From positions 230,717 to 294,716 of IMG/VR virus record IMGVR_UViG_3300035698_018106: a DNA stretch of 64,000 nucleotides; one strand, written 5' to 3'. Positions 3,435 through 3,751 of the stretch are shown in pieces (the first letter of the stretch is position 1; each line of letters starts with the position of its first letter). The stretch is from a virus. The position numbers were made by a program, and so were the translations under genes. The notes under the pieces are model-generated. The model worked only from the letters and a program-made list of their open reading frames with translations. It had not been told where the DNA came from and searched no databases.

Positions 3435-3556
3435 ATGTAATCTGAGAAAATTATTAAGAGCATTTTTTCTACTGCGTCCTATCTATTAGACGACTCCCTA
3501 ATTTTATCTGGCTAGGGAGGCCGGAGTTGCACCGACATTTCAGGCTTGGAATGCTG

Positions 3557-3582
3557 CGAAGTAACTCTTAATGTTACTACAG
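3557..3582 (-). repeat. conserved hairpin motif (minus strand 5'-CTGTAGTAA-N8-TTACTTCG-3'), copy 1
   Basis: plus-strand text CGAAGTAACTCTTAATGTTACTACAG; AGTAAC/GTTACT inverted repeat; one of at least 8 copies, all in same orientation inside tRNA arrays or GC-rich islands. Confidence 0.5.
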
Positions 3583-3679
3583 ATTAAATTGAATGAAATA
3601 TCTAAACTCTTTGAAGGGGCGAATGATTAGAAGGCTCCCTCACCTAGGCCCACAACATGTTGTGGCCTTATTTCAATCG

Positions 3680-3751
3680 CGACGAGAGAGAATTTCGAAA
3701 TCTCGACCTGATGGTTAACAGCCATCTGCTCTGCCTCTGAGCTACCTCGTC
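3680..3751 (-). tRNA. tRNA-Asn (anticodon GTT)
   Basis: acceptor GACGAGG/TCTCGTC, D-arm TAGCTCAGAGGCAGAGC, anticodon stem GATGG/CCATC loop CTGTTAA, T-loop TTCGAAA. Confidence 0.55.

What the first reader, a model, noticed from the sequence alone, without database searches (positions are those of the whole stretch)
3553..3690. Conserved hairpin element CTGTAGTAA-N(8-12)-TTACTTCG (>=8 copies) embedded in a longer repeat with palindrome CACAACATGTTGTG and box GCCTTCTAATC
All copies (3557, 5638, 5885, 10585, 27949, 34069, 42211, 42460) are in the same orientation on the transcribed strand. All lie inside tRNA arrays or GC-rich non-coding islands. The AGTAA/TTACT stem is kept while the loop sequence and length vary, which is the behaviour of a structural RNA signal rather than an anticodon arm. 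At 3600-3690 and 5900-5990 the element is preceded by a related ~100-nt unit (perfect palindrome GGCCCACAACATGTTGTGGCC / GGTGTTGCAACACC, then AGCCTTCTAATC). Candidate roles are a processing (RNase P/Z-like punctuation) signal, a BHB-like splice motif, or a miniature mobile repeat.
Basis: seen in the sequence. Interest (0 to 1): 0.7.

Follow-up and report, generated by a model that had tools for sequence, protein, structure and literature searches.

The report
Ro60-linked Y-RNA-like phage RNAs
The repeated "hairpin" is the conserved handle of nine small non-coding RNAs of the Y-RNA (YrlA-like) kind; they carry tRNA-like inserts and are found next to Ro60 (TROVE) protein genes in this uncultivated phage, its relatives and some bacteria, so this is a divergent branch of a known RNA class, not a processing signal, splice motif or mobile repeat.

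Summary
The motif is real. There are 9 copies, not 8, all on the minus strand, against 0.19 expected by chance. It is not a free-standing hairpin. The 7 nt before UAGUAA pair with 7 nt after a distal UUUCU box (helix P1). The variable "loop" pairs with a segment 5-6 nt upstream of that box (helix P2). Both helices covary strongly. The AGUAA:UUACU "stem" never covaries and is broken in many relatives.

P1, an internal loop and P2 frame a variable cargo:
- E1, E7, E8: circularly permuted tRNA-like domains (T arm, closed 7-bp acceptor stem with encoded N-CCA, D arm).
- E2, E3, E9: tRNA bodies without an acceptor stem.
- E5: a short insert.
- E4, E6: 250-280-nt inserts.

This is the architecture of YrlA-type Y RNAs. 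The window encodes a Ro60/TROVE protein. In about 160 TROVE loci from phages and bacteria the frame lies beside the gene on the same strand. It is absent from control loci. Rfam's YrlA model aligns end to end with GC-richer members but below threshold, and misses the window copies where tested. The canonical GNCGAA motif is replaced by UAGUAA / GUUACUUCG / UUUCU.

Verdict: a divergent, unannotated Y-RNA subfamily. Ro60 binding is inferred, not shown. The upstream palindrome and box unit exists only twice and remains unexplained.

The parts
3438..3586 (-). E1: complete framed RNA (149 nt). P1 5' strand 3580-3586; UAGUAA box 3574-3579; P2 5' strand X 3565-3572; UUACUUCG 3557-3564; cargo; P2 3' strand X' 3453-3460; UUCU 3445-3448; P1 3' strand 3438-3444.
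   Evidence: Coordinates. A covariance model built only from relatives outside the window hits 3438-3586 full length at 99 bits, E 3e-17. The MFE fold gives P1, P2, T arm, acceptor stem-loop and D arm.
3476..3536 (-). E1 cargo: circularly permuted tRNA-like domain. T arm 3520-3536; acceptor 3' strand CTCCCTA 3513-3519; discriminator G 3512; encoded CCA 3509-3511; 8-nt loop 3501-3508; acceptor 5' strand TAGGGAG 3494-3500; D arm 3476-3491.
   Evidence: Read from the sequence. The T, acceptor and D helices covary in 35 relatives.
5555..5667 (-). E2: framed RNA whose cargo is a tRNA body (D arm, anticodon-like arm CUUUUAA, T arm) without an acceptor stem.
   Evidence: Rfam gives a partial tRNA hit at 5585-5636 covering model positions 10-63. 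Model R1 scores 39.7 bits, E 8.5e-6.
5798..5914 (-). E3: framed RNA of the UUUCAUCG variant, with a D-AC-T cargo (loop CUCAAAA).
   Evidence: R1 scores 29.4 bits. Rfam tRNA hit at 5819-5890 without a matching acceptor stem.
10328..10615 (-). E4: framed RNA with a 251-nt non-tRNA cargo. It has its own upstream GTTCTTTAAA motif, and a terminator-like hairpin at 10298-10323 follows it.
27886..27978 (-). E5: short framed RNA (93 nt; P2 AAAAAGAG:CUCUUUUU; P1 only 4 bp). It lies about 1.5 kb upstream of the TROVE gene on the same strand, and a terminator at 27831-27862 follows it.
   Evidence: R1 scores 39.3 bits, E 1e-5. The equivalent position is occupied in L003, L061 and L120.
33786..34097 (-). 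E6: framed RNA with a 276-nt structured cargo (P2 UAUAAAAG:CUUUUAUA, P1 7 bp). It lies upstream of the MVP-like gene.
38788..38916 (-). E9: newly found copy of the UUUCAUCG variant. The cargo is a class-II-like tRNA body (D arm, loop CUGAAAA, long variable arm, T arm).
   Evidence: R1 scores 26.4 bits. ARAGORN had called 38811-38896 an 86-nt tRNA-Phe.
42081..42240 (-). E7: framed RNA with a permuted Leu-like tRNA domain (variable-arm hairpin, T arm, ATCTCCC-A-CCA, loop, GGGAGAG, D arm GTGGAATTGGTAGACAC).
   Evidence: R1 scores 88.1 bits, E 4e-15.
42348..42490 (-). E8: framed RNA with a permuted tRNA-like domain (hairpin, T arm, ATCCCTA-A-CCA, loop, TAGGGAT, D arm).
   Evidence: R1 scores 96 bits, E 1e-16. 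Orthologue in L056.
24655..26334 (-). Gene for a Ro60-like protein (TROVE domain plus a vWA MIDAS motif DxSxS). It is the inferred protein partner of E1-E9.
   Evidence: Pfam TROVE, E 1e-9. The best solved relative is Thermus phage phiLo Ro60, 9KOP/9L5Y, E 1e-17. D379, S381 and S383 are invariant.
3625..3678 (-). U1: upstream unit (palindrome GGCCACAACATGTTGTGGGCC plus box AGCCTTCTAATC). A possible three-way junction GAUUG...[hairpin]...[GAGG..CCUUC]UAAUC. Unexplained.
   Evidence: No relatives were found.
5926..5983 (-). U2: second copy of the upstream unit (palindrome GGTGTTGCAACACC plus the same box).
   Evidence: The fold has a z-score of -3.2.

Best explanation
Each copy of the motif is the 5' half of the stem module of a small non-coding RNA of the Y-RNA class (YrlA-like).

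Anatomy, shown here:
- The 7 nt before UAGUAA pair with the 7 nt after a distal UUUCU box (P1). P1 is probably extended by AG:CU across a bulged U.
Its partner lies 5-6 nt upstream of UUUCU.
- UAGUAA, GUUACUUCG and UUUCU are invariant internal-loop and junction sequences.
- Between GUUACUUCG and P2's 3' strand sits an exchangeable cargo. E1, E7 and E8 carry a circularly permuted tRNA-like domain. E2, E3 and E9 carry tRNA bodies. E4-E6 carry other folds.

Inferred from what is established for Ro60 and Y RNAs (Chen et al. 2014, PMC4201824; phiLo phage Ro60, PMC12135203):
- The conserved stem module is the binding site for the phage's own Ro60/TROVE protein.
- The cargo is the effector module that brings tRNA-recognising or other factors to Ro60.
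- The encoded N-CCA after a 7-bp acceptor stem in E1, E7 and E8 suggests RNase P cleavage in the acceptor loop. That would yield a two-piece tRNA mimic with a CCA 3' end, as reported for M. smegmatis YrlA.
For: 1. P1. Among 152 motif hits from IMG/VR and the window, 44 close with at least 6 contiguous pairs, against 4.5 when the leader sequences are permuted.

2. P2. The mean loop-to-distal duplex is 6.0 bp, against 4.6 with permuted partners (maximum 4.93 in 50 permutations).

3. Pair counts on 127 distinct frames. P1 shows compensatory changes at 7 of 7 pairs and P2 at 6 of 6. The covariation score is 0.653 against 0.173 shuffled (0 of 500 shuffles reach it) and at most 0.16 when partners are slid. 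The AGUAA:UUACU stem shows 0 of 5.

4. Geometry is tight. The variable segment is 8-9 nt and X' ends 5-6 nt before UUCU.

5. RNAalifold on an unbiased MAFFT alignment of 35 relatives recovers P1, the T arm, a 7-bp acceptor stem-loop and the D arm. 19 of 24 pairs show compensatory changes, and it does not predict the hairpin.

6. A covariance model built only from those relatives hits E1, E8 and E7 full length at 99, 96 and 88 bits, with exactly my boundaries. It also hits E2, E5, E3 and E9.

7. Link to TROVE.
- The window encodes a Ro60-like protein.
- A TROVE homologue occurs in 10 of 119 motif-derived loci against 0 of 119 control loci.
- Near TROVE genes the strict scan finds 112 frames on the gene's strand and 1 on the opposite strand, in 46 of 77 viral loci.
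- The relaxed scan finds 104 vs 2 (viral) and 80 vs 1 (bacterial and MAG loci).
- The model gives 80 hits, all on the TROVE strand, in 0.9 Mb of TROVE loci, and 0 hits in 0.89 Mb of control loci.
- L088 shows TROVE gene, terminator, three tandem frames, terminator, with no tRNA gene in 14 kb.

8. Rfam YrlA aligns over model positions 1-114 with frames in L222, L217, L248 and L252 at 28-46 bits. Its P1, internal loop, P2 and 'CUAc' line up with our P1, UAGUAA, X:X' and UUAC.

9. 21 of 67 acceptor loops start with N-CCA where about 1 is expected. This includes all three window copies.
Against: - No binding or expression data exist. Ro60 binding is inference from genomic linkage and architecture.
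- The canonical Ro-binding motif GNCGAAN0-1G/CGAA is not conserved in these RNAs.
- Rfam YrlA does not detect the window copies even at E up to 10 in short searches. In relatives it stays below its gathering score.
- Same-strand bias is partly trivial because phage genes are co-oriented.
- In many loci the TROVE gene itself sits inside a tRNA array, so linkage to tRNA arrays and linkage to TROVE are partly confounded.
- Six of the nine window copies lie 8-22 kb from the TROVE gene.
- The frame-only alignment used was built by selecting P1 of at least 5 bp and the best-anchored X'. The unbiased tests are.
- An H-type pseudoknot in which AGUAA:UUACU forms together with P2 is not excluded in the window's subclade.
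Confidence: 0.72

Rival explanations
1. The frame is a tRNA-like expression scaffold. P1 mimics an acceptor stem, so RNase P and 3' processing enzymes cut the unit out of the polycistronic tRNA-array transcript and stabilise whatever cargo is inserted. Ro60 plays no specific role.
For: P1 is 7 bp and is followed by U-A-G as in tRNA positions 8-10. The frames abut the neighbouring tRNAs with 0-3 nt spacers, just as tRNAs do. Some relatives carry a whole tRNA with its own acceptor stem inside the frame, for example L065 1608.
Against: Frames also occur as stand-alone units away from any tRNA gene but next to TROVE (E4, E5, and L088, L061, L120). Invariant UAGUAA, GUUACUUCG and UUUCU are not needed for RNase P recognition. 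The TROVE enrichment of 10/119 against 0/119, and of 80 hits against 0, would be left unexplained.
Confidence: 0.12
2. The frame is the maturation module of circularly permuted or split tRNA genes. The two halves are held, or cleaved and re-ligated by the phage RNA ligase, to give functional tRNAs.
For: E1, E7 and E8 have the 3' half upstream of the 5' half, with an encoded CCA. Relatives such as L015 5107 and L179 4249 carry T arm, acceptor-CCA, D arm and a canonical anticodon arm. The window encodes an RNA ligase, RlaP and a Thg1-like enzyme.
Against: One third of the frames carry no tRNA-like cargo at all. Many anticodon-like loops are non-canonical, for example UUUUGGU. 'Anticodons' differ between apparent orthologues. 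No bulge-helix-bulge motif is present, and no splicing endonuclease gene was seen among the ORFs scanned (not all were).
Confidence: 0.07
3. One reading: a local hairpin that acts as an RNase processing or punctuation signal, a BHB-like splice motif, or the end of a miniature mobile repeat.
For: The arms are complementary and conserved, and the MFE fold of E8 forms the hairpin. The copies sit at boundaries between tRNAs.
Against: The stem shows no compensatory change at any of 5 pairs, and uncompensated variants occur in 1-16 of the 127 sequences at each position. The 'loop' covaries with a distal strand. RNAalifold does not predict the hairpin. The copies share no sequence outside the boxes and have no terminal repeats.
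Confidence: 0.04
4. The frame is a small self-cleaving ribozyme (two helices, conserved junction nucleotides) that releases its cargo.
For: A compact fold with about 20 invariant unpaired nucleotides in a phage tRNA array, which is a known habitat of small ribozymes. There is a weak twister-sister hit over one frame in L222 (24.7 bits against a gathering score of 34).
Against: No Rfam ribozyme family reaches threshold on any copy. The architecture matches the YrlA stem instead. The TROVE linkage would be left unexplained.
Confidence: 0.04

Closest known systems
YrlA (Y RNA-like A; Rfam RF02553; Chen et al. 2014, PMC4201824)
   Same: A terminal stem formed by the 5' and 3' ends, then an internal loop, then a second helix, then a tRNA-like domain in the order T arm, closed acceptor stem-loop, D arm. 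It is encoded near a Ro60 (rsr) gene on the same strand. The Rfam model aligns end to end with GC-richer members of this family. The 7-bp acceptor stem and CCA recall M. smegmatis YrlA, which is cut by RNase P and receives CCA.
   Different: The GNCGAAN0-1G motif is replaced by UAGUAA / GUUACUUCG / UUUCU. Scores stay below Rfam's gathering threshold, and there is no hit at all on the window copies tested (E1-E3, E7, E8). The cargo is exchangeable (tRNA bodies, whole tRNAs, non-tRNA folds of up to 280 nt). There are nine genes in 64 kb, most of them embedded in tRNA arrays. CCA is encoded in the gene.
Yrl1 and Yrl2 of Thermus phage phiLo with phage Ro60 (PMC12135203; PDB 9KOP, 9L5Y)
   Same: A phage-encoded Ro60 with phage-encoded Y-like RNAs upstream of its gene. 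The phiLo protein is the closest solved relative of the window's TROVE protein.
   Different: The phiLo RNAs were identified through the CGAA motif in a stem-bulge-stem and are not described as tRNA-like. The protein match is a local hit covering only about 175 N-terminal residues.
D. radiodurans Yrn1
   Same: According to Chen et al. 2014, the orientation of the T- and D-like arms in Yrn1 is the reverse of that in YrlA. E2, E3 and E9 (D-AC-T order) resemble this arrangement.
   Different: No sequence relationship was tested. Yrn1 is not embedded in tRNA arrays.
Circularly permuted tRNA genes (Cyanidioschyzon merolae, some green algae, Thermofilum pendens; from my own knowledge)
   Same: The 3' half (T arm, acceptor 3' strand) is encoded upstream of the 5' half (acceptor 5' strand, D arm).
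   Different: Those genes are matured through a bulge-helix-bulge motif, a circular intermediate and ligation. No BHB is present here, and the break is bridged by a long conserved two-helix stem.
Two-piece (permuted) tmRNA
   Same: A T arm, acceptor 3' strand and CCA, followed by an intervening loop and the acceptor 5' strand in one precursor. Rfam tmRNA_permuted gives a weak partial hit on one relative.
   Different: There is no tag reading frame, no pseudoknot series and no G3:U70. A real D arm is present. ARAGORN finds no tmRNA in the window.

Membership tests
YrlA-type Y RNA | The 5' and 3' ends pair to form a terminal stem that carries the Ro60 site | tested here: met
   P1 covaries at 7 of 7 pairs and P2 at 6 of 6.
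YrlA-type Y RNA | Conserved GNCGAAN0-1G (CGAA) motif near the 5' end | tested here: not met
   The conserved 5' sequences are UAGUAA and GUUACUUCG. The bases after UUCG vary (CA, UG, UA, AA, AG, AC, UU) in the window and in relatives.
YrlA-type Y RNA | tRNA-like domain in the order T arm, closed acceptor-like stem-loop, D arm | tested here: met
   Met in E1, E7, E8 and in 67 of 174 relatives, with covariation in all three helices. Not met in E2, E3, E9 (D-AC-T order) or in E4-E6 (non-tRNA cargo).
YrlA-type Y RNA | Encoded close to a Ro60/TROVE gene on the same strand | tested here: met
   E5 lies 1.5 kb upstream of the TROVE gene, and all nine copies are on its strand. Relatives: 112 vs 1, 104 vs 2 and 80 vs 1 same vs opposite strand. 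Controls: 0 of 119 loci, and 0 model hits.
YrlA-type Y RNA | Reaches the Rfam RF02553 gathering score (69 bits) | tested here: not met
   No hit on E1-E3, E7 or E8 even at E up to 10. Relatives score 28-46 bits over the full model.
YrlA-type Y RNA | Bound by Ro60 in vivo or in vitro | not testable with these tools
   Needs RIP or EMSA.
Bulge-helix-bulge splice motif | A 4-bp helix flanked by two 3-nt bulges on opposite strands between two helices | tested here: not met
   Between P1 and P2 there is a bulged U, 2 bp, and an internal loop of about 5 x 8 nt.
Miniature mobile repeat (MITE-like) | Copies alike along their whole length, with terminal inverted repeats and target-site duplications | tested here: not met
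   Only the three boxes are shared. P1, P2 and the cargo differ in every copy. No flanking duplications were noticed on reading the flanks (not searched for systematically).
Circularly permuted tRNA gene | 3' half upstream of 5' half, all four arms present, joined into one functional tRNA | tested here: inconclusive
   The order is met in E1, E7 and E8, and with a canonical anticodon arm in some relatives. Joining and function are not testable. One third of frames have no tRNA cargo.
Known small self-cleaving ribozymes and other Rfam families | A match to the family covariance model | tested here: not met
   Only tRNA hits on the window at gathering threshold, and nothing else relevant on the regions holding E1-E3, E6, E7 and E8 at E up to 10. 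Freshwater-1, GOLLD and tmRNA hits in relatives lie outside the frames.

The most novel reading that the evidence does not exclude
The CCA-encoding members (E1, E7, E8 and about one third of the T-AS-D relatives) may be cleaved by RNase P in the acceptor loop. That would give two-piece tRNA mimics held together by the Y stem. E7 is Leu-like, with a class-II D arm, a variable-arm hairpin and A73. Some relatives carry a canonical anticodon arm as well. Such molecules could be aminoacylated, because LeuRS and SerRS ignore the anticodon (from my own knowledge). They would then be Ro60-tethered charged tRNA mimics, or true split or permuted tRNAs. That would be the first permuted or split tRNA system in phages or bacteria, and possibly a decoy or spare-part system against host tRNA-targeting nucleases.
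Probability: 0.15. Interest if true: 0.8.

Novelty: new variant of a known kind. Interest (0 to 1): 0.5.

Why it matters
Y RNAs and Ro60 are conserved from bacteria to humans, yet the RNA determinants of bacterial and phage Ro60 binding, and the purpose of the tRNA-like module, are poorly understood.

- This family supplies hundreds of natural sequence variants of a compact stem module (P1, an invariant internal loop, P2) with a different conserved motif from canonical YrlA. That is a ready-made mutational data set for Ro60 recognition.
- The module is a portable handle onto which very different cargos have been grafted: permuted tRNA domains with encoded CCA, tRNA bodies, whole tRNAs, and large unknown folds.
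- Current annotation (Rfam, ARAGORN) misses these RNAs or miscalls them as odd tRNAs. tRNA counts in large uncultivated phages are therefore partly wrong.
- Practically, it provides a covariance model and a simple signature for finding Ro60 partners in phage and bacterial metagenomes.

Tried and rejected
- Rfam at gathering threshold on the window and at E-value thresholds on parts of it gave only tRNAs and nothing for the element.
- blastn of the array against GenBank phages gave only tRNA-level hits. tblastn of the TROVE protein found no cultured phage with this clade; the best hit was 33% identical.
- I first read the element as an H-type pseudoknot, or as a tRNA-core mimic with kissing D- and T-like loops. 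I dropped the hairpin stem after one search showed no covariation and uncompensated breaks.
- Hammerhead, twister, pistol, hatchet and HDV-like topologies were compared from memory and did not fit. There are no Rfam hits.
- The freshwater-1 RNA hit in relative L027 turned out to be a different motif outside the frames.
- The major vault protein homologue as a conserved partner was rejected. It lies near TROVE in only 4 of 80 viral loci. Band-7 and RlaP are also not conserved neighbours.
- The pattern scan for the upstream unit (GATT-N30-60-AGCCTTCTAATC) returned only chance matches in coding DNA and tRNA-Arg(UCU) anticodon arms, so that scan was wasted.
- The Burroughs & Aravind 2016 paper on RNA-repair systems, which mentions a novel tRNA-like RNA, could not be retrieved.
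Full report
**Context.** The window is a 28% G+C, phage-like segment. Every ORF of at least 120 aa lies on the minus strand. About 40 tRNA genes sit in two arrays at 3.2-6.7 kb and 38.6-42.6 kb, and a CUA suppressor tRNA lies at 29.6 kb.

- The full pattern matches exactly only twice.
- The core GTAGTAA-N-TTACT matches six times on the minus strand, against 0.19 expected.
- Two further copies are degenerate.
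- A relaxed structural scan finds nine candidates on the minus strand (eight of the copies plus one likely false hit; E5 fails its P1 cutoff) and none on the plus strand.

**The motif is one half of a frame.** Reading the minus strand showed two long-range pairings.
- P1: the 6-7 nt just 5' of UAGUAA are complementary to the 6-7 nt that follow a conserved UUUCU box 60-300 nt downstream. Examples are E1 UAAUCUG/CAGAUUA, E2 UAAUAG/CUAUUA and E8 UAAGUUG/CAACUUA.
- P2: the 3' part of the supposed loop is complementary to a segment just upstream of that box. Examples are E1 AUUAAGAG/CUCUUAAU, E5 AAAAAGAG/CUCUUUUU and E6 UAUAAAAG/CUUUUAUA.

**Tests on relatives.** A pattern scan of IMG/VR returned 119 loci. 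Many are chance hits, but the real ones allowed tests.
- P1 closes with at least 6 contiguous pairs in 44 of 152 distinct motif hits, against 4.5 when leaders are permuted among instances.
- The loop-to-distal duplex averages 6.0 bp, against 4.6 with permuted partners (maximum 4.93 in 50 permutations).
- On 127 distinct frames, every P1 pair (7 of 7) and every P2 pair (6 of 6) shows compensatory changes. The covariation score is 0.653 against 0.173 shuffled and at most 0.16 with slid partners.
- The AGUAA:UUACU 'stem' shows no compensatory change. It is interrupted by uncompensated variants such as UAGCAA, UAGUCA and AUACUUCG.
- That alignment was assembled with selection on P1 and on the X' anchor, so searches are the unbiased tests.
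- The geometry is constrained. The variable segment is 8-9 nt and X' ends 5-6 nt before UUCU.
- The element is therefore not a hairpin. Its 'loop' is a helix strand, and its 'arms' are invariant unpaired or junction sequences. A pseudoknot that also forms AGUAA:UUACU is not excluded for the window's own subclade.

**The cargo.** The frame encloses a variable insert.
- E1, E7 and E8 read, 5' to 3': a small hairpin, a T arm, a 7-nt acceptor 3' strand, a discriminator base, CCA, an 8-10-nt loop, the complementary acceptor 5' strand, then a D arm. This is a circularly permuted tRNA-like domain. E7 is Leu-like.
- E2, E3 and E9 hold a D arm, an anticodon-like arm and a T arm, but no acceptor stem. 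This explains Rfam's partial tRNA hits and ARAGORN's odd calls.
- E5 has a 40-nt insert. E4 and E6 have 251- and 276-nt inserts.
- Among 174 distinct frames, 67 are of the T-AS-D type, 52 have another arrangement with a T arm, and 55 have no T arm.
- RNAalifold on an unbiased MAFFT alignment of 35 T-AS-D relatives recovers P1, the T arm, the 7-bp acceptor stem-loop and the D arm. 19 of 24 pairs show compensatory changes.
- A covariance model built from those relatives alone hits E1, E8 and E7 at 99, 96 and 88 bits with exactly the predicted ends. It hits E2, E5, E3 and E9 more weakly.

**What it belongs to.**
- Pfam scans show a TROVE-domain protein at 24655-26334.
- Its closest solved relative is the Ro60 of Thermus phage phiLo.
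- The alignment with relatives keeps the vWA MIDAS motif.
- Ro60 proteins bind Y RNAs. Bacterial YrlA RNAs consist of a terminal stem plus a tRNA-like domain in exactly the T-AS-D order and are encoded next to rsr on the same strand (PMC4201824). A phage Ro60 with phage-encoded Y-like RNAs has been characterised (PMC12135203).

**The linkage is strong.**
- A TROVE homologue is present in 10 of 119 motif-derived loci and in 0 of 119 unrelated viral loci.
- In loci fetched through the TROVE protein, the strict scan finds 112 frames on the gene's strand and 1 on the other, in 46 of 77 viral loci.
- The relaxed scan finds 104 vs 2 in viral loci and 80 vs 1 in 41 of 80 bacterial or MAG loci. The carriers include Verrucomicrobia (among them the isolate Brevifollis gellanilyticus), Saprospiraceae, Chloroflexi and SAR324.
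- The covariance model gives 80 hits, all on the TROVE strand, in 0.9 Mb of TROVE loci, and none in 0.89 Mb of control loci.
- In L088 the order is TROVE gene, terminator, three tandem frames, terminator, with no tRNA gene in 14 kb. The link is therefore not just a by-product of tRNA arrays.
- In the window, E5 sits 1.5 kb upstream of the TROVE gene. The same position is occupied in the close relatives L003, L061 and L120.

**Relation to YrlA.**
- Rfam's YrlA model aligns over its whole length with frames in GC-richer relatives at 28-46 bits, below the gathering score of 69.
- In those alignments the model's P1, internal loop (AUGCu), second helix and 'CUAc' line up with our P1, UAGUAA, X:X' and UUAC.
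- The model does not detect E1-E3, E7 or E8 at all.
- The canonical GNCGAAN0-1G motif is not conserved here.
- I therefore place the family beside YrlA as a divergent subfamily with its own recognition boxes and an exchangeable cargo.

**Mechanism.**
- Shown: the fold (P1, P2, and the tRNA-like helices) and the genomic linkage.
- Inferred: the stem module binds the phage Ro60, and the cargo recruits partners. This follows the established role of Y RNAs as tethers and gates.
- 21 of 67 acceptor loops begin with N-CCA where about one is expected, including all three window copies. The acceptor stems are 7 bp.
- This suggests RNase P cleavage and a CCA 3' end, as reported for M. smegmatis YrlA (PMC4201824).
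- The window also encodes an RNA ligase, RlaP and a Thg1-like enzyme. This fits an RNA-repair or tRNA-surveillance setting but proves nothing.

**Rivals.**
- A Ro60-independent tRNA-like expression scaffold is the main alternative. It explains the tight packing among tRNAs. It does not explain the invariant boxes or the TROVE linkage away from arrays.
- A permuted or split-tRNA maturation module is possible for some members. It cannot hold for the third of frames without tRNA cargo, or for the non-canonical anticodon-like loops.
- The hairpin, BHB and mobile-repeat readings, and a ribozyme, are not supported.

**The upstream unit.** The palindrome plus AGCCTTCTAATC exists only twice (U1 3625-3678, U2 5926-5983).
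- Both copies can fold into a small three-way junction: GAUUR ... hairpin ... GRAGG-loop-CCUUC-UAAUC.
- I found no relatives.
- The box resembles a tRNA-Arg(UCU) anticodon arm.
- Its function is open, and it is not part of the general element.

Noticed in passing
window 30756-33239 (-): An 827-aa homologue of the eukaryotic major vault protein (MVP_shoulder 1e-25, Vault_3 8e-10; PDB MVP hits around 1e-14). It lies 4.4 kb from the TROVE gene and just downstream of E6. Vaults also contain a TROVE protein and small RNAs. However, MVP lies near TROVE in only 4 of 80 related viral loci.
   Followed up: partly
window 12303-22528 (-): A cluster of NAD+ salvage and synthesis genes: NMN adenylyltransferase with MazG, NAPRTase, isochorismatase/nicotinamidase and NAD synthase. 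There are also a deaminase (23469-24167) and two radical-SAM proteins. This is probably counter-defence against NAD+ depletion.
   Followed up: no
window 516-1151, 59197-60288, 61562-62335 (-): RNA-repair genes: an RNA ligase (PF09414), the RlaP nucleotidyltransferase and a Thg1-like 3'-5' polymerase. There are also IF3 (13188-13712), an HD protein (47460-48083), NUDIX (57335-57871), an SPFH/flotillin protein (44677-46251) and SiaC (36466-36849).
   Followed up: no
window 9389, 10622, 34104, 36400, 42254, 42577 (-); L088 6070: The motif GTTCTTT(A/G)A recurs 15-30 nt upstream of E4, E6 and E7, upstream of the first tRNA of the second array, and upstream of the Y-RNA cluster in L088. It may be a phage promoter or a transcription-start motif.
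   Followed up: no
window 33480-33785 and 35960-36400 (-): Further G+C-richer non-coding stretches with no Rfam match. One runs about 300 nt between E6 and the terminator at 33486-33509. The other starts at a GTTCTTTGAAAA motif and ends in a T-arm-like hairpin near 35990.
   Followed up: no
window 35610-35681, 38689-38783, 42270-42344, 29613-29686 (-): ARAGORN reports tRNAs with unusual anticodon loops (2-nt 'aa', 4-nt 'gaca', 4-nt 'ttga') and a CUA suppressor tRNA. These may serve recoding or frameshift suppression, or they may be miscalls.
   Followed up: no
relatives, e.g. L041 11233, L065 1801, L181 7940, L196 3817: Many acceptor loops that lack N-CCA begin with N-CUA instead (ACUA, GCUA, UCUA). 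This is a second recurrent start of the loop.
   Followed up: no
relatives, e.g. L027 5554, L041 10492, L112 1886, L155 4040: Framed tRNA bodies often carry a recurrent non-canonical 7-nt loop (UUUUGGU, UUUGGAU, AUUGGGU, AUCAGGA) where the anticodon loop would be. Others carry canonical Lys, Cys, Phe, Leu or suppressor (UCA, UUA) loops.
   Followed up: partly
L248 2509-2932; L027 7577-7637; L028 2791-3216; L100 and L122: The same TROVE and tRNA-array neighbourhoods in relatives also hold a GOLLD RNA (152 bits), a freshwater-1 RNA (50.7 bits, below threshold) and tmRNA genes. These arrays act as ncRNA islands.
   Followed up: no
human Y RNAs, recalled from memory, not checked here: The 5' box with its preceding base (GUAGUAA) resembles the GUAGUGA of the conserved upper stem of vertebrate Y RNAs (GGUAGUGAG). 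This may be coincidence.
   Followed up: no
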